In this document: positions 295-15,392 of the stretch, piece after piece
How positions within the stretch are numbered: the first letter of the stretch is position 1
Layout of the letters: the number at the start of each line of letters is the position of its first letter
Assembly (NCBI RefSeq): GCF_003231495.1
Contig: NZ_PQWO01000047.1
Span: 1 to 15,912 of the forward strand
DNA length: 15,912 bases
Origin: Acaryochloris thomasi RCC1774
GTDB lineage: Bacteria; Cyanobacteriota; Cyanobacteriia; Thermosynechococcales; Thermosynechococcaceae
Direction: 5' to 3'
The notes under the pieces: model-generated
Seen by the model: only the letters and a program-made list of their open reading frames with translations
Databases searched by the model: none
Told to the model about the DNA's origin: nothing
Program-made: the position numbers and the translations under genes

Positions 295-1044
295 ATGGCT
301 CGGTCTTCCTCGGCACAGGCAACATCAGAGATTACAGCGGCTGATGCCCAGGCTTTTATTCAATTGAACGGTCTCAGTAAGTCTTTTCAGGAAGGAGTTG
401 CTGACCGGCAAGTTCTTAGAGAAATCACGACCTCCTTTACGGCGGGAGAATTTGTTGTGCTTTTGGGACAAAGCGGGAGCGGTAAAAGTACGCTCCTTAA
501 CTTAGTCAGCGGCATTGAGCGGCCGACAACGGGACGAATCATCATTGATGGCGTTTGTCTCTCTGACTTGAATGAGCGACGATGCACTTTATTCCGTCGC
601 GATCGCATCGGCTTTATTTTTCAATTCTTTAATTTGATTCCGACCTTGACGGTGCTAGAGAACATTACGCTGCCACAAGAGTTAGCAGGCGTGCCCCAAG
701 CAGAGGTGAAAAAGAAAGCAATCGCACTTCTAGAGCGAGTGGGATTGGGCGACCGTGGGGAAACTTTCCCGGATAAGCTCTCGGGCGGACAGCAGCAGAG
801 GGTCGCGATTGCGCGGGCATTGGTTCATGACCCAATGCTGGTGTTAGCAGATGAACCGACCGGGAATCTAGATGAAGAGACAGGGGAGACGGTTCTAGAG
901 CTGCTGCTGGAGCTGACGCGCTCCGCCCATAAAACATTGATCATGGCGACCCACAATCCAGATATTGCTCAGCGGGCCGACCGGGTGCTGCGAATGCACG
1001 ATGGACAATTGGCAGAAGAGACAGTTCAGGATGTTCGCTCATGA
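295..1044 (+). CDS. ABC transporter ATP-binding protein, MacB/LolD-type
   Basis: 249-aa ORF with AGGA about 10 nt upstream of ATG 295. Walker [10 protein letters not shown] (nt 466-492). [18 protein letters not shown] region typical of MacB/LolD-type ATPases. ABC signature [15 protein letters not shown], Walker [15 protein letters not shown]-loop MATHN. The stop overlaps the next start (ATGA at 1041-1044). Confidence 0.92.
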
Positions 1045-3671
1045 TCGGTACAGAGGCAGCGACAGAACTCCGTAGCTCCAATCGCCCTCTTTGGCGGATG
1101 GCTTGGCGGCGCTTTAGGATGCGATCGCTTCAATATTTTTTGTGTCTAATCGGGGTCGCTCTCGGTGTGGCGATGATGGTGTCCATTGATCTAGCCAATG
1201 GATCGGCGCAGACGGCTTTCGAGTTGTCTACAGATGCGATCGCAGGTCGAGCCACCCATCAAATTGAAGCGCTGGCACCGGCAGGGATCAATGAGTCGGT
1301 GTATACAAAGATCCGGCGGGAGTTAGGGGGCGTGACGGTGGCCCCTATCGTTGACGGCTACGTCCTTGCACCTGACTTGGGTAACCAGCCCATGCGGTTG
1401 GTGGGAGTCGATCTGTTCGCAGAATCTCCCTTTCGCAACTATTTCGTTCCACAGAATCGGACAGTGGGTGAAGCGGGACTCCTCAACTTTTTGACACAGC
1501 CAAATACAGTAGTACTGGGCGCAGACGTGGCCGACCGCTATCAGGTGGCGCTGGGAGATCAAATCACGTTAGATCTCTCGGGGCGGCTGGAAACCGTAAC
1601 CGTTGTAGGAACAGTACAGCCGGAGAGTTCCACTACCCGTCGAGCCTTGAGCAGTTTGCTATTTACGGATATTGCCACGGCTCAGGAAGTTTTGGAGATG
1701 CCGGGGCATCTGAGCCACATCGATTTAATCTCAAGATCTGAGGCGGATTTGGCAGCAGTGGAGCAACTATTGCCGGAGGGGATCCAGCTTGAGACAGCGG
1801 CAGCGCAGAAAAATGCCGTGCGGCAGATGACGGCGGCCTTTCGGCTAAATTTGACGGCCCTAAGTCTGCTAGCGCTGGTAGTGGGAATGTTTTTGATCTA
1901 CAACACGGTCACCTTCAGCGTGGTGCAGCGACGGCCCTTATTCGGCGTGCTGCGCTGCTTGGGAACGACGCCGGGACAGCTATTCGTCTTGATTATGGGT
2001 GAGTCAGCCATCTTAGGCGTGCTCGGTTCCGCAGTGGGATTAGGACTGGGTGTGGTACTGGCCCGCAGCATTGTGGGGTTAATTACCCAGACGATTAATG
2101 ATTTTTACTTTGTCGTCAGCGTGCAGCAGGTCGCTATTTCTTCACTTTCTCTGATCAAGGGATTCAGTATCGGAGTGGCTTCAGCATTACTGGCTTCTCT
2201 GGTTCCGGCATTGGAGGCGATGCAGACCAGCCCGCAGACGATTCTGCAGCGCTCTTCATTAGAGAATAAAGTACAGCGACTGCTGCCTTGGTTGGTTTTG
2301 ACCTGGGGGCTGACGACGGTGGCGGGCATTCTGCTGCTGCGGATGCAGGCAGGTTTAGTGGTGGCGTTTTCGGGCTTGTTCTCAATTTTGTTGGGGGCAG
2401 CGCTGCTGACGCCGCCGATTACCACTGCGCTGATGCGAGTGGTGCAGCCTTTGACTGGGCGGCTAGGCGTTTTGGGACGACTGGCTCCTCGGGATATTAT
2501 TCGATCTTTGAGCCGGACTTCAGTTGCGATCGCAGCTCTCATGGTCGCCGTCTCCGTGATCGTGGGCGTCTCAATCATGGTCGGTTCGTTCCGGGTAACG
2601 GTGGTGCAGTGGCTTGACCAAACGCTGCAGGCCGATATCTATGTGTCCCCCCCCAGCACAACGGCTAATCGGGTCTTAGGGCAGCTCGACCCATCTGTCG
2701 TGGGTGAGATTAAGCGCTGGCCGGGGTTAGAAGAAGTGGTTACCTACAACGACGCCGACGCAACGGTGACGGCATTCAATTATGGCGAAGGACAAGATCT
2801 ATCCACAGTTGAAGTAGACAGACCCGTCAAGCTAATTTCTGCGGGGGGCGATGTTTCACATGGGCAGCGGCCCTACGCTTGGAAGAAAGAGCCGGGGACA
2901 GATCCCTGGGCAGCGCTCGATCGAGGGGAGGGCGTGATTATTTCAGAAGCGTTGATGCTCAAGGCCAGTCTGACAGAGCCGCCGACTTCCATTGTGATCA
3001 AGAGTCCACAGGGACCGCAGACCTTTCCGGTGGTGGCGGTGTTTTACGACTATTCGTCAGATGTAGGGACAATGATTCTGGACGACGATCTGTTTATTCA
3101 AAGCTGGGAAGACGATGGTGTGGCTTCCTTGGGCTTGTTTGCCCAGCCCGGATTTGAAGCAGATGATGTTGTAGACGAGCTGCGACAGCATTTCCAAGGC
3201 CGTACAGATGTGACCATTCAGTCTACGCGTAGCCTCAAAGATGGTTCCATCGAGATCTTTGATCGGACCTTTGCCATTACCCAGGCGCTGCGTTTGCTAG
3301 CCGTGATTGTGGCTTTTATCGGGGTTCTTAGTGCACTGATGAGCCTACAGCTAGAGCGATCCCGTGAAATCGGCATTCTGCGAGCCACCGGTATGACGCC
3401 GCGCCAGCTTTGGGGGTTGACGCTTCTTGAAACAGGACTAATGGGCAATGTTGCGGGGCTATTGGCGATGCCGCTGGGCTACGTGCTGGCCTGGATTTTA
3501 ATCTACGTCATCAACGTGCGATCCTTTGGCTGGACGCTGCAGATGCAGCTTAACCCCAGCTATTTTTGGCAAGCTTGGGCCGTGGCGGTGGTAGCGGCAC
3601 TGCTGGCGGGAATCTATCCAGCTTGGCGCTTGGGACGGGTCACAGTGGCAGCAGCAATTCGAGAAGAGTAA
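1041..3671 (+). CDS. ABC transporter permease, duplicated FtsX/MacB-like (876 aa)
   Basis: ATGA overlap with the upstream ATPase. N-terminal TM helix ([20 protein letters not shown]). Two long extracytoplasmic stretches, each followed by a TM cluster. Each cluster carries an FtsX-type cytoplasmic loop motif ([23 protein letters not shown] and [22 protein letters not shown]). Confidence 0.87.
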
Positions 3672-3718
3672 GGTCATCAGATATTTGCACAAGCCTTATC
3701 CATTCTTAAAGGATCAGG

Positions 3719-4111
3719 TTAGAGGTTTAATCGCTGTCGCTCTACGATGCGCTCATGAGTATTAAGCTTGAGTAAAGATATGGTGGTGCGCCCTTCTGTG
3801 GTTTTGCTGCTGATCTGGGCATTATGTCGGCTGAAATGATCGTTCCAACATTGCGTCCGAGGATTGAACAGAAAGCTAAAGTTTCCCGTTTCGGGGTCAA
3901 ACGAGCCAAGATCAGTCCCTTTGTGACGATTACAGCGCCAGCACGCGTAGGCCAAATTCTCTGCTGTTGTTTTGCCGCCGTGTTTGCGGGCAATGATGTG
4001 ATCGACTTCATGGGGATAAAAACTGGCATCGTTCGGCAGTAAGCAATATTCACAGCAATAATTGGCCTGATCCTTAACTTGGCGACGGAGTAAGGCGGGA
4101 ATATTTGTCAC
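3719..4111 (-). CDS. HNH (beta-beta-alpha-Me) endonuclease, 130 aa
   Basis: GTG start overlapping the upstream stop (GTGA; plus-strand tcac at 4108-4111). Full HNH signature: C20-x2-C23, H34-E-V-D37-H38, N52, C57-W-R-C60-N61-R-H63-K-G (nt 3920-4057). The C-terminal extension PRTQCWNDHF...GRTTISLLKLN is typical of small stand-alone HNH proteins. Confidence 0.87.
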   Translation of the reverse strand: MTNIPALLRRQVKDQANYCCEYCLLPNDASFYPHEVDHIIARKHGGKTTAENLAYACWRCNRHKGTDLGSFDPETGNFSFLFNPRTQCWNDHFSRHNAQISSKTTEGRTTISLLKLNTHERIVERQRLNL

Positions 4112-4461
4112 GATTCAGCCATTGCTGAGAGATAGGGGAGGTTGCCAGATTTAAGCAAAATAATGAGATGTTCAATCTGTTCATATTCGTCTAACTCTTG
4201 ACATTCCTCTGACGTGATTGTTTCTGCTGCATTCCGATCTAGAAGATATGTCAGACGCTGCTGCATTTCTGTGGTGGGCCGAAAGTCAGCAATCTGATCC
4301 GGGGTGGGCTGGCTAGCAAGAAAGTCGAGAATGTAGCGATAAACTTGAGCAGATAGTGTGGCTGGTTGCAGGCAGCGGCGCAGCAGCTCAGGGATTTGAT
4401 CGCGGATGGGGGCGACTTGTTCCATTAGATCGTCGGGGATTTCAATCGTGAGTGTAGCCAT
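4108..4461 (-). CDS. Small acidic helical protein, putative antitoxin/immunity partner of the HNH nuclease (117 aa; the alternative upstream ATG at 4488 gives 126 aa)
   Basis: The ORF ends 4 nt inside the HNH start. ATG at 4461 is preceded by AGGGAGAAG about 8 nt upstream, whereas ATG 4488 has no SD. The N-terminus MATLTIEIPDDL resembles cyanobacterial antitoxin-like proteins. By hand count there are 20 D/E against 8 K/R. Confidence 0.6.
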   Translation of the reverse strand: MATLTIEIPDDLMEQVAPIRDQIPELLRRCLQPATLSAQVYRYILDFLASQPTPDQIADFRPTTEMQQRLTYLLDRNAAETITSEECQELDEYEQIEHLIILLKSGNLPYLSAMAES

Positions 4462-4632
4462 TGGGTACTTCTCCCTAGCAAATCGCATTTGGTTAGGAGC
4501 ATATGATAGCCCCCTCTATTTTCAGAGTTATCCAGATCTGGCTCTTGGGGTAACATGAGTACCTCCAGGGTAAATTACAAATCTTGTTGTGAGCGAAGCT
4601 GAGCAAACCTATCAGCAATGCAGTGTTGAAAA

Positions 4633-5757
4633 ATGCAAATATTGAAATGGCTAGCAGGACTATCGCTGATCCTGTTGTTAATAGTCTCTCCTGTTTGGGC
4701 AGTAGAGCAGGGAAATGTCCAGTGGTTAGAGCCTGCCGAAACGCCCGCTTTCAAGAAAGCGATCGCACCTGTTCCCCTCAAGTTCCCGCAGGATTTTGGC
4801 CCCCATGAGGACTATCAAACAGAGTGGTGGTATTACACGGGAAACTTAGAGACCGAGACCGGACGACCCTTTGGCTATGAGCTGACACTGTTTCGTCGGG
4901 GTCTAACAACCGGTGAAGCGGAGCCGGGATCCCTGTGGCGCAGTAATCAGATTTATTTTGCACACTTCACCCTCAGCGATATCCAAGATCAGAATTTTTA
5001 TCCGCAGGAGCGCTTTAGTCGAGGAGCCGCCGGTTTAGCCGGAGCACAGGCAGATCCCTATCGGCTGTGGCTTGATGACTGGTCGATTGAAGCCACATCA
5101 CCCGAACAAGTGCAGCTCCAGGCTAAAGGAGAAGAAGTCTCGTTGGATTTGACCCTGTCGCTGACAAAGCCAGTACTCCAGGGCGATCGCGGCTACAGTG
5201 CCAAAGGCTCCGAACCGGGAAATGCTTCTTACTACTATTCGGTGGTTCAACAGCCCACAACGGGCACGGTCACAGTACAGGGAGAAAGCTATCCTGTCTC
5301 AGGCTCGAGCTGGACTGATCATGAGTATTCCACCAGCGCTCTCAGCGAAGGAACCGAGGGCTGGGATTGGTTTTCACTGGAACTAGACGATGGATCTGCC
5401 CTCATGCTCTACGGCTTGCGAACGGCAGACAACAACACGACGCCAGAATCTAACGGCACTTACATTAGCCCTGAGGGAAAGGTCATGCATCTCAACCGCG
5501 AGGATTTTGAGATCGATGTGCTGAAAACTTGGAAAAGTCCACAATCTCAGGCCGTTTATCCAGCCAAGTGGGATATTGCGATTCCTCGATTGGATCTCAA
5601 TGCTAAGGTGTCTCCGTTAATAAACAATCAAGAGCTACTGTTCTCGACAACTTACTGGGAAGGGGCTGTGAAGCTTTCCGGCTCTCGTTCTCAGCAAGTG
5701 ATCAAAGGCAAAGGATATGTTGAACTCACTGGCTATGAGCGAAGCTTGGCACTCTAA
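4633..5757 (+). CDS. Secreted AttH / CrtC-like (hydroxyneurosporene-synthase fold) lipocalin-like domain protein
   Basis: 374-aa ORF with signal peptide MQILKWLAGLSLILLLIVSPVWA/VEQ. The motif HEDYQTEWWYYTGNL...FGYELTLFR is characteristic of the AttH/CrtC N-terminal domain. The C-terminal half is beta-rich. This family is classically linked to MacB-type ABC transporters (Agrobacterium attE-H). Confidence 0.78.
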   Translation: MQILKWLAGLSLILLLIVSPVWAVEQGNVQWLEPAETPAFKKAIAPVPLKFPQDFGPHEDYQTEWWYYTGNLETETGRPFGYELTLFRRGLTTGEAEPGSLWRSNQIYFAHFTLSDIQDQNFYPQERFSRGAAGLAGAQADPYRLWLDDWSIEATSPEQVQLQAKGEEVSLDLTLSLTKPVLQGDRGYSAKGSEPGNASYYYSVVQQPTTGTVTVQGESYPVSGSSWTDHEYSTSALSEGTEGWDWFSLELDDGSALMLYGLRTADNNTTPESNGTYISPEGKVMHLNREDFEIDVLKTWKSPQSQAVYPAKWDIAIPRLDLNAKVSPLINNQELLFSTTYWEGAVKLSGSRSQQVIKGKGYVELTGYERSLAL

Positions 5758-5867
5758 GCTCGGCTGTTTTGTAAAGTACTTCTGTCTTCTTAGAAAAAGA
5801 ATAGATCCCGAAGTTGCCTTTACGATGAGAATGCTTGGAGACTCAAAAAACTCGGATTGTAGTAGTC

Positions 5868-6329
5868 ATGGGCGTAAGCACTAAAAAACGACGGAAGTTG
5901 ACCGTTAATAATCGGCTGTATGTCTGGTATGTCAAGGAAGACTATGACTTTCCCAACTATGTATTGCACGTTTTCTCCGATGACAAACAGTTCATCGTTC
6001 ATTACCACTTGCGACAGTCTAGCGATATAAGGCATATTATCGTTCATGGACCTGATTTTCCGCGTGTAGCTGGCACTGGCGGAGTCTGGCGTCGATTTCG
6101 ATGTCCAGAGTGGGGTATAGAAAATGGTGCAGTAACTCCCCGCACTGTTCGGAATCTGATTGATTGGTGCCAATCGTCAGGCAATACTACAGAAGTTGAT
6201 TATGTTGGTAAAGCCGTCCCGCTCGGTGGTTGTTGTATATCCTGTGGCGTCAATCTTCGTGGCATGATTCCAATCAGCTCAAATTGTTGCCATAAGTGCG
6301 GCTATCCAGTCGCGGAGAGGGCTGGCTAG
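5868..6329 (+). CDS. Hypothetical protein with C-terminal double-CxxC zinc ribbon (153 aa from ATG 5868; TTG 5835 gives 164 aa)
   Basis: Longest ORF in a low-GC stretch. The C-terminus CCISCG-x17-CCHKCGYP forms a 4-Cys ribbon. The N-terminal part (KRRKLTVNNRLYVWYV...LHVFSDDKQFIVHY...VTPRTVRNLIDW) resembles a widespread uncharacterised small-protein family. No clear SD. Confidence 0.5.
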   Translation: MGVSTKKRRKLTVNNRLYVWYVKEDYDFPNYVLHVFSDDKQFIVHYHLRQSSDIRHIIVHGPDFPRVAGTGGVWRRFRCPEWGIENGAVTPRTVRNLIDWCQSSGNTTEVDYVGKAVPLGGCCISCGVNLRGMIPISSNCCHKCGYPVAERAG

Positions 6330-6480
6330 AAGTTTCATTGCATGTATAGATTGGCTTGAGGATCTGAGATCATCCTAACTTGTACAAAATCATCAGAAGT
6401 CACGGCAAACCTTTTAACTGAGAATTATTCCTGCCTACGCTACACTCATGGCTAGCTGGTTCTAGCACAGGAGATCATCA

Positions 6481-7395
6481 ATGGATTTTGCAGGCGCGCT
6501 GCCGGTTTTTGTCATTACTCTTAGAGAAGGGGTCGAAGCAGCACTTGTAGTCGGCATTGTCCTCGCAGCTTTAACCAAAAGTCGCAAAGATGACCTAATT
6601 CCCTGGGTCTATTGGGGTATTTTGGCTGGAATTGGGGGCAGTTTACTGATCGGGCAACTGCTGAGTTGGGGACTTCGTAAAGTTGGAGAAGTTAATCCTC
6701 AGCTACAACCAGTGCTAGAGCCGTTCTTGAAAAGTGGACTTTGTGTGGTTGCGATCGCAATGCTGAGCTGGATGCTGATCTGGATGACCCAGCAATCCCA
6801 ATCCCTCAAAGGAGAGATCGAGAATTCTCTCACGTCCTCGCTACAGAGCAGTGCAGCGGGGTGGGGCGTTTTTACACTGGTGGGCATTGCTGTTCTGCGA
6901 GAGGGTTTTGAAACCGTCCTGTTCATTTTTGCCAATGCACAACAGAACTCAGCTGCATTAGGTGCCGTCCTTGGGTTATCCGGGGCCGTTGGCATTGGCT
7001 TTGCCCTGTTCAAATGGGGAATCAGAATTAACCTGCGTCGATTCTTTCAAGTGATGGGCATTTTTCTACTGCTCATTGTGGCCGGTCTCGTCATTTCTGC
7101 CCTCAAAAATATCGACGCAGCGATCTATGCCCTTAGTCTGCTCAAACCAGCCAATACCCTCTGTTTTTCTACCGATTCCTGCGTTCTGGGAGCGCTCGCC
7201 TGGGATGTCAGCGCCGTTTTGCCCGACAGCCAATTTCCGGGGGTTATCTTCAAAGCCCTGTTGGGATACCGCGACCACCTCTACTGGCTGCAGGTAATCA
7301 GCTATAGTCTATTCTTAACCATCGTTGGTACCTCATACCTTCGGAGCTTAGGTCAACCACCCGCCAAACTTTCGAACCATTCATCAGCATCGTAG
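6481..7395 (+). CDS. FTR1/EfeU-family high-affinity iron permease
   Basis: 304-aa polytopic membrane ORF with AGGAG 7 nt upstream of the ATG. It has the two hallmark REGxE motifs: REGVEA (nt 6523-6540) in TM1 and REGFET in TM4. Confidence 0.88.
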   Translation: MDFAGALPVFVITLREGVEAALVVGIVLAALTKSRKDDLIPWVYWGILAGIGGSLLIGQLLSWGLRKVGEVNPQLQPVLEPFLKSGLCVVAIAMLSWMLIWMTQQSQSLKGEIENSLTSSLQSSAAGWGVFTLVGIAVLREGFETVLFIFANAQQNSAALGAVLGLSGAVGIGFALFKWGIRINLRRFFQVMGIFLLLIVAGLVISALKNIDAAIYALSLLKPANTLCFSTDSCVLGALAWDVSAVLPDSQFPGVIFKALLGYRDHLYWLQVISYSLFLTIVGTSYLRSLGQPPAKLSNHSSAS

Positions 7396-7412
7396 GAACT
7401 TCCCTGAACCCC

Positions 7413-7847
7413 ATGAAAGATCTCGACACCTCAAAGACAACGGCCCTGCTTAACAGCATCATGGAATTTGAGCTGGCTGGTGTGGTTCGCTATACCCACT
7501 ATTCGCTCATGGTTACGGGGCCAAATAGAATTCCCATTGTTGATTTCTTCAAAGCTCAGGCTAGTGAATCACTGCTCCACGCTCAGGAAGCAGGAGAAAT
7601 CATCACGGGTCTAGAAGGACACCCAAGCCAACGCATCTCAACCATTGAAGAAACCCATCGTCACTCAGTCCAAGACCTGCTGCAGGAGAGCCTGAACCAC
7701 GAGCAAAAAGCCCTGCATTTATACAAAGAACTGCTGGATGTTGTAGAAGATGCCAGCATCTACCTAGAAGAATATACGCGCACCAAAATTGGTCAAGAAG
7801 AGATGCACAATCTCGAAATCAAGAAAATGCTCAGGGATTTTAGTTAA
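7413..7847 (+). CDS. Ferritin-like four-helix-bundle protein (bacterioferritin/Dps superfamily)
   Basis: 144-aa ORF 17 nt downstream of the FTR1 gene. It aligns by eye with bacterioferritin: LNSIMEFELAG matches LNKLLGNELVA, and ESLNHEQKAL and QEEMHNLE match the E94 and E127-x2-H130 regions. The first E/H pair has altered spacing (ESLLH), and there is no Met equivalent to the Bfr heme ligand. Confidence 0.72.
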   Translation: MKDLDTSKTTALLNSIMEFELAGVVRYTHYSLMVTGPNRIPIVDFFKAQASESLLHAQEAGEIITGLEGHPSQRISTIEETHRHSVQDLLQESLNHEQKALHLYKELLDVVEDASIYLEEYTRTKIGQEEMHNLEIKKMLRDFS

Positions 7848-8035
7848 CAGAAGCTGGGGGGCCACTTAATACTGTCTCCCCTCAATGGACTGCTTGTCAT
7901 GCGAAAGAGAGGCTGACCGTAACCCAGTCAATTGCAGGCATTATTGAGTAGCTTCGTTCCCCAAAATCGGGTCCAGAGAGCTGGAGTGATTTTGATATGG
8001 TAGATGGAAGCTTTTAGCAATCTGGGCTTAAGAAT

Positions 8036-9715
8036 TTGAAGGGATACACCGACCGGCTGAGTGGCTGGAAGAGTTTTAGGCAATTCAACGGTTGGACCGT
8101 TGGGGTGGTTGCGATCGCATCCTTAATTGCAACGCCAATCCTCGTGGTGCTAGCCAGCGTTTTTTCTAACCAAAGCAACACCTGGGGACATTTAGCATCT
8201 ACGGTGCTACCGCAATACATTCTTAATTCCTTTGGCTTGATGCTGGGCGTTGGCGCAGGCGTTTTGCTTTTGGGGGTCGGCACCGCTTGGCTGGTGACCC
8301 TCTGCTCCTTCCCTGGTAGCCGTTTTTTTGAATGGGCATTGCTGCTGCCCTTGGCAGCTCCTGCCTATTTGCTGGCCTATACCTATACCGAGTTTTTAGA
8401 TTATTACGGCCCGATACAGACGGCACTGCGGGGGGTATTTGGCTGGCAAAGCGCGACTGACTACTGGTTCCCCAATATTCGGTCTCTGTGGGGTGCGATC
8501 GCAATGCTGAGCCTGGTTCTCTACCCCTATGTTTATCTGCTTGCCAGAGTTGCTTTTTTAGAGCAGGCCACCTGTACCTTAGAGGCCAGTCGTGCCCTAG
8601 GGTGCAATCCTTGGCAGGGCTTTCGCCGAGTTGCCTTACCCTTGGCTCGTCCTGCGATCACCGCCGGTTTAGCGTTAGCACTCATGGAGACGCTGAATGA
8701 TTTTGGTACCGTGCAGTACTTTGGCGTCTCGACCTTTACGACGGGTATCTATCGCACCTGGTTCGGCAGCGGAGAACGTCAGGCCGCAGCCCAGTTAGCC
8801 GCCGTCTTGATGATGTTTATTTTGGGCCTCATTCTCCTGGAGCGCTGGTCTCGACGGCGGGCCCGCTACTATCAAACCAGCAGTAGTCAGCAGCAGCTCT
8901 CGACCTACAGACTTGTAGGTCTGCGGGCCTGCTTGGCCGTACTCGTTTGCCTGAGTCCCATCGTGCTGGGCCTCTTGATTCCCGGAGGGCTGCTGCTGCA
9001 GATGACGCTGAGTGAGAGAACCGCTCGCTTTAATCAGAGCTTTTTCGAGTTAGCCAACCACAGCCTACTGTTAGCTTCCGTGACGGCGGCCATTGCAGTT
9101 CTACTATCACTGTTTTTAGCCTATGGAGTCAGGCTGCAGGGCAACCCGCTGCTGCGGTTTGGCGTCCGTATTTCGTCGATGGGCTATGCCGTGCCGGGGT
9201 CAGTAATTGCGGTAGGAATTTTGATCCCGATCGCTTGGGTTGATAATTCACTCAATACCTGGATGACGAACACCTTTGGCTTCTCTACAGGGCTTTTGCT
9301 CAGCGGCACGGTTGTGGGGTTGGTTTTGGCCTATCTGGTCCGATTTTTGGCCGTATCCCTCAGCACTGTCGAGACCGGCCTCGGCAAAATTCGGCCGACC
9401 CTGGATGATGCCTCTCGCAGTTTAGGCCAGGGTACTGTCGGCACCTTGCGCAAGATCCATGTGCCGATTATGGAAGGGAGTCTGTTCACAGCGGTGATGC
9501 TGATCTTTGTGGACGTCATGAAAGAGCTCCCGGCCACCATTGTGATGCAGCCGTCTAACTTTGAGACCTTAGCAGTGCGGGTCTATCAATACGCCGAGGA
9601 TGAACGCCTGATTGAGGCGGCGGCTCCAGCTTTAGCAATTATTGTGGTAGGGCTACTGCCAGTGCTGTTGTTGAGCTGGCAAATTACGCGATCGCGTCAA
9701 AGAAGCACCAACTAA
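8036..9715 (+). CDS. futB: Fe(3+)-type ABC transporter permease, fused duplicate (FutB/FbpB/HitB-like)
   Basis: 559-aa ORF. The only in-frame start after the stop at 8015-8017 is TTG 8036. It has two homologous six-TM halves, each with an EAA loop (LEASRALGCNPWQGFRRVALPLARPAI; DDASRSLGQGTVGTLRKIHVPIMEGSL). The iron assignment is supported by the neighbouring FTR1 and ferritin-like genes, but a ThiP-like specificity cannot be excluded. Confidence 0.75.
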   Translation: MKGYTDRLSGWKSFRQFNGWTVGVVAIASLIATPILVVLASVFSNQSNTWGHLASTVLPQYILNSFGLMLGVGAGVLLLGVGTAWLVTLCSFPGSRFFEWALLLPLAAPAYLLAYTYTEFLDYYGPIQTALRGVFGWQSATDYWFPNIRSLWGAIAMLSLVLYPYVYLLARVAFLEQATCTLEASRALGCNPWQGFRRVALPLARPAITAGLALALMETLNDFGTVQYFGVSTFTTGIYRTWFGSGERQAAAQLAAVLMMFILGLILLERWSRRRARYYQTSSSQQQLSTYRLVGLRACLAVLVCLSPIVLGLLIPGGLLLQMTLSERTARFNQSFFELANHSLLLASVTAAIAVLLSLFLAYGVRLQGNPLLRFGVRISSMGYAVPGSVIAVGILIPIAWVDNSLNTWMTNTFGFSTGLLLSGTVVGLVLAYLVRFLAVSLSTVETGLGKIRPTLDDASRSLGQGTVGTLRKIHVPIMEGSLFTAVMLIFVDVMKELPATIVMQPSNFETLAVRVYQYAEDERLIEAAAPALAIIVVGLLPVLLLSWQITRSRQRSTN

Positions 9716-11714: not shown

Positions 11715-11766
11715 TTAGGTCTCAGACAACCCTCGTAGATTGAAGGTATCGAGGTTGGAGAACCAA

Positions 11767-12075
11767 ATGATAAACAAGAAAAGCCACCAAATTAATACCG
11801 CTCTTGTTGGACTCGCCGTTGCTATCCTTGGCTTAACGACGGGCCGCACGGTTGAAGCGAAAACCCTTGATCACGCCATTGAGAACCAGTCAGAGACGCA
11901 GCTGGTTGCCCTCAAGTTCAAGAAGTTTAAGAAAGGCCACCACGGTCACAAAAAATTCCATCACAGTCCGAAGCGATTCAAGAAAGTGAAGAAGATCCAC
12001 CGCGGTCACGACAAATTTCATGGCAAGAAATTTGTTGGCCACAAGAACTTCCATCATGGTCACCATTTTCGTTAG
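11767..12075 (+). CDS. Secreted His/Lys/Phe-rich (histatin-like) low-complexity protein, putative periplasmic metal-binding protein
   Basis: ATG 11767 is preceded by GGAGAA; the track start TTG 11740 is less likely. Signal peptide MINKKSHQINTALVGLAVAILGLTTGRTVEA/KT. By hand count the mature part has 14 His, 17 Lys and 8 Phe. The motif H-x-G-H-x-K-F-H recurs (HHGHKKFHH, HRGHDKFHG, VGHKNFHHGHH). Confidence 0.65.
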   Translation: MINKKSHQINTALVGLAVAILGLTTGRTVEAKTLDHAIENQSETQLVALKFKKFKKGHHGHKKFHHSPKRFKKVKKIHRGHDKFHGKKFVGHKNFHHGHHFR

Positions 12076-12878: not shown

Positions 12879-15392
12879 TCAGACGATTAGCCGCCAAAGA
12901 CCTGCGGCCAGACCAATCGTGGTCAAATGCTGGGGCATAAGAGTCCAGAATGATTGACGGCCGATTTTCTGAGTTAACAGCAGGGTTAGAACGACTGCGG
13001 CCATCAACGTTGACCCCTGCAAAAAGTTGATGACGGCCGGATGGGCTACCAAAATCGGCAGGTCAATACTCGAGAGACCAAAGGTCGCTAGCGTAATCGG
13101 TAAAATTTGCCCCGCCTCGGTTAAGCCCAAGTCAAGGTAGTGAGCTAGGCTGCTGCCAAGGACGAGCGGGAGGTAGCCATAGGCCATCTCGACAAAAGGG
13201 CGGGGCTTTCTCTGTAAGGAATATTGAAACCTGTAGGTGATTAGAGGGATTAGAGATGCGATCGCAAGCACACCAACAGACACCCCTAAGTGCGGCCAAA
13301 ACTCACCTAAGCGCAAATTGACCGGCAGCAGCGACTCGATCTCCGGCAACCGATGCAGGAAAATACCGCCCAGCAACAGCAGCAGCAGCGCCACCTCATA
13401 GCTACGGGGCTGATGGGTCGTCCACAGCTCAATCCCAGGGGGGCGCAGATTCACCTCAACCGAGCGATGGGGACAAGCCTTGAGGCAGGTCATACACAAT
13501 ACACAGTCTCGATTTTCCTCTAGCTGAGCGGGATGAGAATAGATCGGACAGCCGTTCGTTTCTTGTCCCTCACCCTTTTCAGGACCGCCCTTGTAGCACT
13601 GGTAGGTACTGCACTCCGCCGAACAGGTGCCCTGCTGGGCGCGCAGCTCGGTCATCGAAAGTTTGGCAAACAGGCCGTTCATCCCACCAATCGGGCACAG
13701 GTAGCGGCACCAAAAGCGACGCTCAAAGATCACGGAAAAAATTACTGCCCCCGCCGTAATCAACAGCAGCAGACAGCTCGACAGATAGGCCGTATTCTCT
13801 AGATTCCATAGCTCCTCCCAGAGGAAGATCAGCACAAATAAACTGTAGAGAAACCAGCCGCCCCATCGTTCCGCTTCCTGGCGAGGCCAGCTTTTGAGCT
13901 GCCGGGGCACCAGCCACAGCGACAGCTTTTGCGCCACCTCGCCATAGATCATGAATGGACAGACCGAACACCACAAACGACCTACGAACGGAAAGCTGAG
14001 CAGCACCAACGGCCACCACCAAGCCCAAAACAAATTGAGAGCTACGTTCTGATCACGCTGCTGCGGCCCTAAGAACAGCAGCAGGACAACGAGGGCAAAA
14101 GCCGTGAGCGTAAAGCCGTAGTTAATGCGGGTGGGCCACCAGTCACTACGCAGAAACGCGCGAAGTCCTGGATAGGCATTCAGTAAGTTCAGTCGGAACC
14201 GCTGCTTAGGTGCTTGAGCTGGCCAAAACAATTCTTCCGTCAGGTTACAGCTGCCAGAAACCTGAGCCATCGCTCGCTCAATCAATCCCTGCAATTCGGC
14301 TAAATTACCAGGGAAGCTATAGGCCTGCAGTCGTCTGAGAGCGGTCGAGGAAATACCGCGCCTCGAGATACCCTGCTCTTGGGCAGTCAGGCTAATGTAA
14401 TAGCTAACCTGCGTCTTCATGTCAGCCTTGCGAACCCGCAGCGGCGGTACTTTAATGGAGTGCCCGACCCAGCCATCAATCTCAGGGAGAACCTGCTCAG
14501 AAACCATCATGATCCGAGCCTGTGTTTTTTGAGGTGCTACTTGAGAATCACGCGAGACAGGAGTATAGCTTTCGGTCTCCAGAAGAACCTGAAGCTTTTG
14601 CTGTAGCTCTTTTGGTAGCTCTTGAATATTGTTGAGAACGAGGGTGCCCTGCCCCAAGGCTTTTAAAAAACCAGGCTGCCCTCCTGCTCGGCCAAAGAGT
14701 TCGGCCCCGCTAGCCTGTAGCGTTCTGCAGTTGACCTGAATAATTGGCTCGCGTCGCCACTGAGAGCCAAAGTGAATCAGAGCCGCTGCATTATCTTTTT
14801 CCAGACCGGGTTCACCAAAAACGAGGACGGAGCTGCGATCTTGACTGGCCTCCTGAATTTGCTGGCGGAGTTTACTCGCATAGCGGCTCTTGCCGACAAT
14901 GCCGCGCTGCGCTCGAGGGACAAGATAGGGGCGCAGAATGGTCTGTCGTTCCTGCTCTTGGGCAAGCTGTGCCGAGACCTCAGCCAGGTCTTGCGATAAC
15001 TGTCGTGAAACAAGCTGCACCATCTCAGGATGCTGGACTGCAATCTCAAGGAACTCAGCTTTGGGAATCATCCATAGCTGGCAATCTGTAAGGGTAATCG
15101 CCGTATACTGGGTCGGCTGCTCTAGCAGGAGTTCATTAAGGTGCAGAACGGTGCCGGGTAAGAGACTGCTGGCCCAGGCCGCACTTTTTTCATGGGTGCG
15201 ATATTGTTCCATTCTGCCTTCGTACAGAATGTACAGGGCATCTGGCTGCGTATCTTCTAGGACGAGTCGCCGATTTTCCGCAACGCTAATCTCCTGAAGC
15301 GATGGGGCCAGGGCTTTGAGGATGGGTTCAGGGAAGAGGTTGAGTTGAGATCGCTCTTTTAGCCAGATGATAGACTGCTTTGGAGATTCCAT
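12879..15392 (-). CDS. Multidomain protein: cNMP-binding-like domain + sigma54-activator-type AAA+ domain (degenerate) + NapH/NosR-like polytopic 4Fe-4S membrane domain
   Basis: 837-aa uninterrupted ORF with GAGGA 6 nt upstream of the ATG. aa 8-135 form a CNB-like beta-roll (nt 14988-15371). aa 160-380 align by eye along their length with NtrC central domains (VLVFGEPGLEKD, ELFG, GTLVLNNI, ARIMMVSE, VPPLRVRKADM, FPGNLAELQGLIERA). aa 420-837 contain about 9 TM helices with CSVCP (nt 13956-13970), CRYLCP (13692-13709), CSAECSTYQC...GCP and the ferredoxin motif CVLCMTCLKACP (13470-13505). Confidence 0.85.
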   Translation of the reverse strand: MESPKQSIIWLKERSQLNLFPEPILKALAPSLQEISVAENRRLVLEDTQPDALYILYEGRMEQYRTHEKSAAWASSLLPGTVLHLNELLLEQPTQYTAITLTDCQLWMIPKAEFLEIAVQHPEMVQLVSRQLSQDLAEVSAQLAQEQERQTILRPYLVPRAQRGIVGKSRYASKLRQQIQEASQDRSSVLVFGEPGLEKDNAAALIHFGSQWRREPIIQVNCRTLQASGAELFGRAGGQPGFLKALGQGTLVLNNIQELPKELQQKLQVLLETESYTPVSRDSQVAPQKTQARIMMVSEQVLPEIDGWVGHSIKVPPLRVRKADMKTQVSYYISLTAQEQGISRRGISSTALRRLQAYSFPGNLAELQGLIERAMAQVSGSCNLTEELFWPAQAPKQRFRLNLLNAYPGLRAFLRSDWWPTRINYGFTLTAFALVVLLLFLGPQQRDQNVALNLFWAWWWPLVLLSFPFVGRLWCSVCPFMIYGEVAQKLSLWLVPRQLKSWPRQEAERWGGWFLYSLFVLIFLWEELWNLENTAYLSSCLLLLITAGAVIFSVIFERRFWCRYLCPIGGMNGLFAKLSMTELRAQQGTCSAECSTYQCYKGGPEKGEGQETNGCPIYSHPAQLEENRDCVLCMTCLKACPHRSVEVNLRPPGIELWTTHQPRSYEVALLLLLLGGIFLHRLPEIESLLPVNLRLGEFWPHLGVSVGVLAIASLIPLITYRFQYSLQRKPRPFVEMAYGYLPLVLGSSLAHYLDLGLTEAGQILPITLATFGLSSIDLPILVAHPAVINFLQGSTLMAAVVLTLLLTQKIGRQSFWTLMPQHLTTIGLAAGLWRLIV

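What the first reader, a model, noticed from the sequence alone, without database searches (positions are those of the whole stretch)
3719..4488. Translationally coupled acidic-protein/HNH-nuclease pair: candidate nuclease toxin-immunity or defence module
A 117-aa strongly acidic helical protein (20 D/E against 8 K/R) ends with TGA inside the GTG start of a compact 130-aa HNH nuclease. The nuclease has a complete metal-finger catalytic signature and no other domains. The inhibitor-first order, the 4-nt overlap and the acidic partner recall HNH DNase toxins held in check by acidic immunity proteins (colicin E7/E9-Im7/Im9) and type II TA organisation. The antitoxin-like N-terminus MATLTIEIPDDL fits this picture. 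The pair sits on the opposite strand, wedged between genes that normally form one transporter unit. That placement is what one would expect for a selfish or accessory cassette.
Basis: partly seen in the sequence, partly recalled or inferred. Interest (0 to 1): 0.65.

Follow-up and report, generated by a model that had tools for sequence, protein, structure and literature searches.

The report
Conserved acidic-protein / HNH-nuclease gene pair
A small acidic protein of an undescribed family is always encoded just upstream of a compact Septu-type (PtuB-like) HNH nuclease in many cyanobacteria and their plasmids; it looks like a new toxin-antitoxin-like nuclease/inhibitor module, but inhibition and toxicity are untested.

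Summary
On the minus strand, a 117-aa acidic helical protein (4461->4108) ends in a TGA that overlaps the GTG start of a 130-aa HNH nuclease (4111->3719). Both are genuine, strongly conserved genes. The key test passed: all 80 reference-genome loci with this HNH carry the partner directly upstream, mostly with the same 4-nt overlap. So do distant relatives (30-38% identity, Chloroflexota) and three of 19 cyanobacterial plasmid hits examined, including Nostoc PCC 7120 pCC7120alpha. Neighbouring genes are otherwise unrelated, so the module is autonomous. In the window it fills a 961-nt insertion in a normally contiguous ABC-ATPase/FtsX-permease/lipocalin unit. That junction holds MazF and PIN cassettes in other organisms. 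The HNH is the nuclease domain of Septu PtuB without PtuB's PtuA-binding tail. The partner matches no Pfam, NCBIfam, PADLOC or PDB family. It is not a colicin/Im pair and not Septu. The best reading is a type II toxin-antitoxin-like inhibitor/nuclease module (confidence about 0.55). Binding, inhibition, toxicity and substrate (DNA or tRNA) remain untested. This is a new family of a known kind and of moderate interest.

The parts
4108..4461 (-). Partner gene: 117-aa acidic (pI 4.2), predicted all-helical protein of an undescribed family. It has an N-terminal MxxITIExPDEL...LPELL segment and a C-terminal FLASxPTPxxIxxF..S..Q.RL..LL.(K/R)N..G.LT..E..ELDEYE.IEHL..LLK module.
   Evidence: No Pfam, NCBIfam, PADLOC or PDB family. 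1559 clusters at 50% identity.
3719..4111 (-). HNH nuclease gene: 130 aa, GTG start. Zinc-finger (CxxC...CxxC) beta-beta-alpha-metal nuclease with D37-H38, N52 and N61. It corresponds to the HNH domain of Septu PtuB without the PtuA-binding C-terminal domain.
4108..4111 (-). GTGA: the partner's TGA stop overlaps the nuclease's GTG start (translational coupling signature).
   Evidence: The same 4-nt overlap occurs in 57 of 87 loci.
4471..4476 (-). Shine-Dalgarno-like AGGGAG, 9 nt upstream of the partner ATG at 4461. It supports the 117-aa start over the ATG at 4488.
   Evidence: sequence read directly; family alignment.
3672..4632 (.). 961-nt segment carrying the pair. It lies between the stop of the FtsX/MacB-type permease (3671) and the start of the CrtC-type lipocalin gene (4633). 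GC here is 0.44-0.50, against 0.53-0.57 in the flanks.
295..3671 (+). Host context, upstream: ABC ATPase (295-1044) and MacB/FtsX permease (1041-3671). Not part of the module.
4633..5757 (+). Host context, downstream: CrtC-N plus Lipocalin_9 protein, normally directly behind the permease. Not part of the module.

Best explanation
This is an autonomous, horizontally mobile two-gene module of the type II toxin-antitoxin kind. Gene 1 encodes a small acidic helical protein that is made first. Stop/start overlap then couples its translation to that of gene 2. Gene 2 is a compact PtuB-type zinc-finger HNH nuclease. The inferred mechanism is that the partner binds the nuclease stoichiometrically and keeps it inactive, probably through its invariant acidic helix (E86-x-x-E89-L-D-E92-Y-E94-x-I-E97-H98) covering the nucleic-acid groove or metal site. 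When the partner is lost or displaced (proteolysis, loss of the plasmid or locus, or an infection signal), the free nuclease would cut DNA or a tRNA and arrest growth. That would give plasmid or locus addiction, or abortive-infection defence. Shown here: the genes are real, strictly co-inherited, co-diverging, translationally coupled, patchily distributed, plasmid-borne and independent of neighbours, and the nuclease active site is intact. Inferred only: physical binding, inhibition, toxicity, the trigger and the substrate.
For: (1) Strict pairing. 80/80 GTDB species loci with an HNH relative have the partner immediately upstream on the same strand. The spacing distribution peaks at -4 nt (57/87). 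(2) Pairing persists at 30-38% partner identity, in Caldilineaceae and other metagenome contigs, and on plasmids: Nostoc PCC 7120 pCC7120alpha, Synechocystis PCC 6714 pSYLB and Geminocystis pGM01. (3) There is no conserved third gene. Upstream and downstream neighbours fall into more than 70 unrelated Pfam families each. (4) Pairwise identities of partner and nuclease correlate (r = 0.89), and the partner diverges 1.2x faster, as antitoxins usually do. (5) Mobility. In the window the pair sits in a 961-nt lower-GC insertion that splits a normally contiguous operon. The same junction holds PemK/MazF and PIN cassettes elsewhere. Partners in one 90%-identity cluster occur in both Leptodesmis and Synechococcus sp. 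Nb3U1. There are 19 plasmid records, some next to integrases, CRISPR-cas, BrnT and an anti-phage dCTP deaminase. (6) Decay is on the nuclease side. L010 has an in-frame stop in the HNH with an intact partner. L088 keeps the partner but has lost the HNH that the otherwise syntenic L089 retains. (7) The nuclease is catalytically intact and PtuB-like. PtuB nucleases are growth-arresting effectors that cut DNA or tRNA-Tyr (PMC12673091; PMC13096335). (8) An HNH-domain type II TA toxin has been validated experimentally (Flag-TA, PMC12643550).
Against: There is no direct evidence of binding, inhibition or toxicity. The partner has no detectable DNA-binding domain, and no conserved operator lies upstream, so classical autoregulation is unsupported. 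The partner was never seen with any other toxin type. Both proteins are unusually well conserved for a conflict system: mean 59% and 66% identity across orders. The family nuclease is not markedly basic (median pI about 7). The two decay cases are too few to be statistically meaningful. The AF2 models are mediocre (pLDDT 68 for the partner, 58 for the HNH). A positive-cofactor role for the partner fits the co-conservation equally well.
Confidence: 0.55

Rival explanations
1. A two-subunit defence nuclease in which the small protein is a positive adaptor or sensor. It would be a functional stand-in for the PtuA ATPase of Septu: it recruits, targets or activates the PtuB-like HNH on an infection cue rather than simply inhibiting it.
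For: The HNH is PtuB-like over residues 11-125, and the top Foldseek rows are PtuB chains (not significant). PtuB works only with a partner. The strict one-to-one pairing and high conservation fit an obligate complex. Some copies lie in defence-rich plasmid regions.
Against: The partner has no ATPase or any sensor domain. The HNH lacks the PtuB C-terminal domain that mediates partner binding in Septu. Immediate neighbours in 80 loci show no defence enrichment. No family member was found in viral contigs or phage records that would hint at an arms race. Upstream gene order with a 4-nt overlap is typical of antitoxin-toxin pairs.
Confidence: 0.2
2. A chromosomal housekeeping or repair nuclease with a dedicated regulatory or chaperone subunit. 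It would be vertically inherited and not a selfish or conflict element.
For: Sequence conservation is high and clade-specific sequence signatures exist. Synteny is conserved within Nostoc, with a SpoU methylase downstream in 10 loci.
Against: Distribution is patchy: 199 matching stretches among 185,579 species genomes. Context varies between genera. The window copy is an insertion into an operon. Plasmid copies sit next to integrases. Near-identical partners occur in distant genera. Pseudogenised and deleted nuclease copies exist.
Confidence: 0.1
3. A colicin or pyocin-type secreted HNH DNase with its acidic immunity protein (E7/E9-Im7/Im9-like), or a polymorphic-toxin/immunity cassette.
For: An acidic small partner next to an HNH nuclease.
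Against: The HNH matches PF01844 and PtuB, not a colicin DNase. The partner matches no immunity family. The partner is upstream, whereas immunity genes follow colicin toxin genes (established knowledge). The nuclease is only 130 aa, with no delivery, receptor or pre-toxin domains, and no secretion or lysis genes are conserved nearby.
Confidence: 0.03
4. A free-standing HNH homing endonuclease with a helper protein, spreading by cleavage of empty target sites.
For: An insertion lies precisely in a short intergenic junction of a conserved operon. HNH homing enzymes are common (established knowledge).
Against: There is no association with introns, inteins or phages. Insertion contexts are all different, so there is no recurrent homing site. 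No flanking repeats stand out from chance. The HNH lacks the DNA-binding modules of homing enzymes.
Confidence: 0.05

Closest known systems
Septu PtuB / retron-Eco7 PtuB HNH effector nucleases
   Same: The nuclease aligns to PADLOC PtuB profiles over nearly its whole length (E 1.5e-10, residues 11-125). It has the same four-cysteine zinc finger plus catalytic His (compare PtuB C43/C46/C78/C90 and H57). The PtuB chains 9vhl_F and 8eea_G are the top two Foldseek rows (weak). Like PtuB, it is always encoded with a partner that presumably controls it.
   Different: No PtuA ATPase is present. The 130-aa protein ends before PtuB's three-helix C-terminal domain, which binds PtuA. Its partner is a 117-aa acidic helical protein unrelated to PtuA and encoded upstream with a 4-nt overlap.
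Type II toxin-antitoxin modules (generic), including the HNH-domain Flag-TA of Yersinia enterocolitica (PMC12643550)
   Same: A small upstream gene is translationally coupled to a downstream nuclease. The module is autonomous, occurs on plasmids and in variable chromosomal sites, and shows decay on the nuclease side. Flag-TA shows that a beta-beta-alpha-metal nuclease can be a type II toxin neutralised by a folded antitoxin near its active site.
   Different: The Flag toxin has three domains and more than 400 aa, with an EsaD/YeeF-like nuclease and a YezG/EsaG-like antitoxin. Here the toxin candidate is a bare PtuB-type HNH domain and the partner belongs to a different, undescribed family. No DNA-binding domain or operator was detected, and toxicity is untested.
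Colicin E7/E9 DNase - Im7/Im9
   Same: An HNH-superfamily nuclease is paired with a small acidic helical protein.
   Different: The HNH subfamily is different, the partner family is unrelated, the gene order is opposite, there are no translocation or receptor domains, and the protein is not secreted.
DUF896/YnzC (UPF0291) and DUF7667 helical-hairpin proteins
   Same: The partner's C-terminal LT..E..EL..Y hairpin gives weak hits to these families: 6 and 12 of 69 members, best E 0.017 and 0.0021. YnzC is the top Foldseek row (E 1.8).
   Different: All hits are below the curated thresholds and cover only about 40 residues. They give no functional information.

Membership tests
Type II toxin-antitoxin system | Two adjacent small genes in one operon, with the antitoxin usually upstream and stop/start overlapping or abutting | tested here: met
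   GTGA overlap in the window. 57/87 loci show the -4 nt overlap and almost all lie within +-10 nt.
Type II toxin-antitoxin system | The pair is inherited as a unit, independent of neighbours, with a patchy or mobile distribution including plasmids | tested here: met
Type II toxin-antitoxin system | The toxin alone arrests growth | not testable with these tools
   Only indirect evidence: an intact catalytic motif, and one pseudogenised and one deleted HNH beside intact partners.
Type II toxin-antitoxin system | The antitoxin protein binds and neutralises the toxin | not testable with these tools
No natural fusions were found.
Type II toxin-antitoxin system | The antitoxin carries a DNA-binding domain and autoregulates through an operator | tested here: inconclusive
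   No RHH, HTH or AbrB match in 69 family members. No conserved upstream motif beyond HIP1. The N-terminal strand-helix segment is conserved.
Septu (PtuA-PtuB) | PtuB-type HNH nuclease | tested here: met
   PADLOC PtuB profiles, best E 1.5e-10, residues 11-125.
Septu (PtuA-PtuB) | Adjacent PtuA ABC/SMC-like ATPase | tested here: not met
   No PtuA ATPase was found next to the pair in the window or as a recurrent neighbour in 80 loci. The window's ABC ATPase at 295-1044 belongs to the MacB/FtsX transporter.
Septu (PtuA-PtuB) | PtuB C-terminal three-helix domain that binds PtuA | tested here: not met
   The protein ends at profile position about 150-170 of 213-247. In PtuB the C-terminal domain is residues 153-216.
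Colicin DNase / Im immunity pair | Colicin-type DNase domain and Im-type immunity protein | tested here: not met
   Pfam gives only PF01844 and PF14279 for the nuclease and nothing for the partner.
Colicin DNase / Im immunity pair | Toxin with receptor or translocation domains, and the immunity gene downstream | tested here: not met
   The nuclease is 130 aa and single-domain, and the partner is upstream.
HNH homing endonuclease | Located in an intron, intein or phage genome, or at a recurrent homing site | tested here: not met
   The partner has no phage match, and viral contigs gave only two distant HNH hits that lack the partner. Insertion contexts are all different.

The most novel reading that the evidence does not exclude
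The pair would be a minimal, ATPase-free derivative of the Septu effector. A new-fold acidic protein would replace PtuA as the keeper and sensor of a PtuB-type HNH. On phage infection or plasmid loss, the HNH would be released to cut a specific tRNA or DNA. That would define a widespread defence/addiction family in cyanobacteria and Chloroflexota (over 1500 clusters at 50% identity), with a previously undescribed antitoxin domain.
Probability: 0.25. Interest if true: 0.6.

Novelty: new member of a known kind. Interest (0 to 1): 0.45.

Why it matters
If the partner does hold a PtuB-type HNH in check, this adds a large uncharacterised family to the few known TA or defence modules that use an HNH nuclease as effector. 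The partner family alone has 1559 clusters at 50% identity. The module is present on plasmids of model strains such as Nostoc PCC 7120 and Synechocystis PCC 6714. It would show how a Septu-type nuclease can be controlled without its ATPase. It would also give the partner family, now annotated only as 'hypothetical protein', a function and a Pfam-type definition. The module is only about 750 bp, which makes it easy to test and possibly useful as a plasmid-stabilising or counter-selection cassette in cyanobacteria.

Tried and rejected

(2) Partner family identification failed. Pfam, NCBIfam and PADLOC gave no significant family for the window protein. PDB sequence and fold searches gave nothing significant. 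Scanning 69 diverse members gave only sub-threshold DUF7667 and DUF896 hairpin hits.

(3) The AF2 model of the HNH alone was poor in the catalytic core (pLDDT below 50 for residues 1-67). The Foldseek result, with PtuB chains on top at E 0.7 and 2.8, is only suggestive.

(4) A metagenome scan with the diverse partner alignment A3 failed because it had no conserved stretch. Distant partners were examined through the look-up of encoding contigs instead.

(5) A search for a conserved operator or promoter upstream of the partner in 78 loci found only HIP1 and AT-rich words. The promoter/terminator scan of the window region was at background level.

(6) A search for target-site duplications or terminal inverted repeats around the 961-nt insert found only short repeats indistinguishable from chance, for example a 9-nt inverted repeat at 3681-3689 / 4634-4642.

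(7) The viral-contig and phage searches were checked for the module. Viral contigs gave only two distant HNH hits that lack an upstream partner, and the partner has no match in phage records.

(8) Longer partner-family proteins were checked for extra domains, and none were found. Two are tandem duplications of the C-terminal module.

(9) Literature searches for a described HNH/antitoxin pair of this type in cyanobacteria found nothing specific.

(10) The colicin/Im, homing-endonuclease and Septu memberships were considered and rejected on tested features.

Full report
**1. What is in the sequence**

The window is cyanobacterial. The HIP1 octamer GCGATCGC occurs 12 times against 0.33 expected, and all close homologues come from cyanobacteria.

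Two ORFs lie head to tail on the minus strand.
- The downstream ORF (4111->3719, GTG start, 130 aa) is an HNH nuclease.
- The upstream ORF is listed as 126 aa from an ATG at 4488. The family alignment shows the protein starts at the ATG at 4461 (MATLTIEIPDDL..., 117 aa).
- That start is preceded by AGGGAG at 4476-4471, with a 9-nt spacer.
- The partner's TGA stop (4110-4108) lies within GTGA, so stop and start overlap by 4 nt.
- The partner has 20 D/E against 8 K/R (pI 4.2). The HNH has pI 8.8.

**2. Both genes are real and belong to conserved families**

The partner has 238 word-indexed homologues (E down to 5e-52). A full HMMER scan of 1.8 billion representative proteins with the profile found 1559 clusters at E <= 0.001. 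Almost all of the 150 listed hits are proteins of 100-130 aa.

The HNH has 2452 word-indexed homologues. Mean column identity is 66% for the partner alignment and 73% for the HNH alignment.

**3. The nuclease**
- It matches PF01844 at E 2.9e-15.
- Invariant family residues are C20, C23, H34, D37, H38, N52, C57, C60, N61 and K64, plus a conserved C-terminal half (FNPRTQxWxxHF ... GRTT..LL.LN..ER..ER).
- D37-H38...N52...N61 align with the catalytic DH...N...N of a Cas9 HNH domain (8d2k).
- In PADLOC the best matches are 20 PtuB (Septu) profiles, led by E 1.5e-10 over residues 11-125 against profile positions 41-150 of 247.
- Published structures describe PtuB as an HNH domain (residues 1-152, with a four-Cys zinc finger and catalytic H57) plus a three-helix C-terminal domain (153-216) that binds PtuA (PMC12673091). 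The window protein therefore corresponds to the PtuB nuclease domain without the PtuA-binding tail.
- The AF2 model was poor in the core (pLDDT 58). Its two best PDB matches were nevertheless PtuB chains (9vhl_F and 8eea_G, at E 0.7 and 2.8, not significant).

**4. The partner**
- The window protein has no significant match in Pfam, NCBIfam or PADLOC.
- Neither the PDB sequence search with the family profile nor the fold search gave a significant match.
- Among 69 diverse family members, only sub-threshold DUF7667 and DUF896 (YnzC) helical-hairpin hits appeared.
- AF2 predicts an all-helical protein (pLDDT 68).
- Family-wide conserved features are an N-terminal MxxITIExPDELxxxL...LPELL segment and a C-terminal module ending in an acidic helix, E..ELDEYE.IEHL...LK.
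- The C-terminal module also occurs as tandem duplicates without the N-terminal segment (P0305, P0330), so the protein has two modules.
- No RHH, HTH or AbrB signature was detected.

**5. Co-conservation, the decisive test**

A scan of one genome per GTDB species with the HNH alignment found 199 encoding stretches, and the best 80 were fetched. In all 80 loci, an ORF matching the partner profile lies directly upstream on the same strand.

Across 87 loci including the window, the distance from the partner stop to the HNH start was:

| Spacing | Loci |
|---|---|
| -4 nt | 57 |
| -8, -1, +2, +3, +7 or +10 nt | 28 |
| Larger | 2 |

Hosts are almost all cyanobacteria of many orders. A few Chloroflexota and Acidobacteriota bins also appear.

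Distant partner relatives (29-38% identity to the reference of that search) were looked up on their contigs. Each is again followed by an HNH gene, for example in a Caldilineaceae genome.

A tblastn search of PLSDB found the partner on 19 cyanobacterial plasmids. In three cases examined, the HNH follows it:
- Nostoc PCC 7120 pCC7120alpha, next to an integrase.
- Synechocystis PCC 6714 pSYLB, next to cas genes.
- Geminocystis pGM01, between BrnT and a DUF1156 gene and near an anti-phage dCTP deaminase.

In about 1 Mb of fetched DNA, no partner-like ORF preceded anything other than this HNH. No family HNH lacked the partner, apart from contig ends and two distant viral HNH hits. Partner and HNH pairwise identities correlate (r = 0.89), and the partner diverges 1.2 times faster.

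**6. Autonomy and mobility**

The immediate upstream and downstream neighbours in the 80 loci fall into more than 70 different Pfam families on each side, with no recurrent third gene. The one exception is a SpoU methylase that reflects synteny within Nostoc.

In the window, the pair lies on the opposite strand between a MacB/FtsX permease and a CrtC-type lipocalin gene. In 80 metagenome loci encoding relatives of that lipocalin, the permease end and the lipocalin start are adjacent in roughly 45. In L093 they are separated by 6 nt. The window has 961 nt at that junction, with lower GC (0.44-0.50 against 0.53-0.57). In other loci, the same junction has acquired a PemK/MazF cassette (L145) and PIN cassettes (L126).

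Partner proteins in a single 90%-identity cluster occur in both Leptodesmis sichuanensis and Synechococcus sp. Nb3U1. The partner has no match in phage records. Viral contigs gave only two distant HNH hits, and neither has an upstream partner. No flanking repeats mark the insertion.

**7. Decay pattern**

In L010 the HNH has an in-frame stop while the partner is intact. In L088 the partner is present but the HNH has been lost, whereas the otherwise syntenic L089, with the identical partner, keeps it. No converse case (HNH without partner) was seen. With n = 2 this is only a hint, but it points in the direction expected if the nuclease is the harmful component.

**8. Interpretation**

The most economical reading is a type II TA-like inhibitor/nuclease module. 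The acidic partner would be made first and in at least equal amounts through translational coupling. It would bind and silence a PtuB-type HNH. Loss or displacement of the partner would free the nuclease. PtuB-type nucleases cause growth arrest by cutting DNA or tRNA-Tyr. An HNH-domain type II toxin has also been validated experimentally (Flag-TA).

Binding, inhibition, toxicity, trigger and substrate are all inferences. The main rival is that the partner is an obligate positive adaptor or sensor, a 'mini-Septu'. Housekeeping, colicin-like and homing-endonuclease readings are disfavoured by tested features (see the membership table).

Points against a classical TA:
- No detectable DNA-binding domain or operator.
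- No swapping of the partner among other toxin types.
- Unusually high conservation.

**9. Novelty and verdict**

The nuclease is annotated everywhere simply as 'HNH endonuclease' and the partner as 'hypothetical protein'. No curated family covers the partner, and I found no paper describing this pair.

It is best classed as a new family within a known kind (two-gene toxin-antitoxin or defence nuclease modules), with a Septu-type effector controlled without its ATPase. Interest is moderate. The family is widespread, easy to test and present in model strains, but the organisation itself is conventional and the mechanism is unproven.

Noticed in passing
L145:3333-3894 and L126:2641-3800 (metagenome loci related to window 3672-4632): The same permease-lipocalin junction that holds the HNH pair in the window holds a PemK/MazF toxin with a small upstream ORF in L145, and PIN-domain genes with a small adjacent ORF in L126. 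This short intergenic junction seems to be a recurrent landing site for TA-type cassettes.
   Followed up: partly
L010:2943-3390; L088:3354-3906 versus L089: L010 has an HNH with an in-frame stop next to an intact partner. L088 has lost the HNH while the otherwise syntenic L089, with the identical partner protein, keeps it.
   Followed up: partly
L045:2650-3390 and 6106-6388: A Spirulinaceae contig carries a second partner-family gene about 3 kb downstream of the first pair. It is cut by the locus end, so its HNH could not be checked. One MAG (CASBQE01) has two separate pairs (L033, L055).
   Followed up: no
P0305, P0330 (partner-family representatives): Some family members are tandem duplications of the C-terminal FLAS.PT...LT..E..ELD module and lack the N-terminal MxxITIExPDEL segment. 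This suggests the partner is built from two separable modules.
   Followed up: partly
window 12879-15392 (-): An 837-aa protein combines a cNMP-binding domain, a sigma-54-type AAA+ domain and a C-terminal multi-pass membrane region with 4Fe-4S (Fer4_5) motifs. This is an unusual fusion for a cyanobacterium, which lacks sigma-54 (my own knowledge).
   Followed up: no
window 6481-9715 (+): An iron-related cluster: an FTR1-family iron permease, a ferritin-like (Dps-type) protein and a two-domain BPD_transp_1 ABC permease (FutB-like by my own knowledge).
   Followed up: no
window 11740-12075 (+): A 111-aa ORF with a hydrophobic N-terminus and a His/Lys-rich repetitive tail (HHGHKKFHH..., HRGHDKFHGKKF...). 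It has no Pfam match and may be a secreted metal-binding protein.
   Followed up: no
window 5835-6329 (+): A 164-aa ORF with no Pfam match ends in a Cys-rich zinc-ribbon-like tail (CCISCG...CCHKCG). It lies directly after the lipocalin gene.
   Followed up: no
L172 (Geminocystis plasmid pGM01, 43626-48964): The pair sits in what looks like a defence island: an anti-phage dCTP deaminase, a BrnT toxin plus a small ORF, the partner/HNH pair, then a DUF1156 protein.
   Followed up: no
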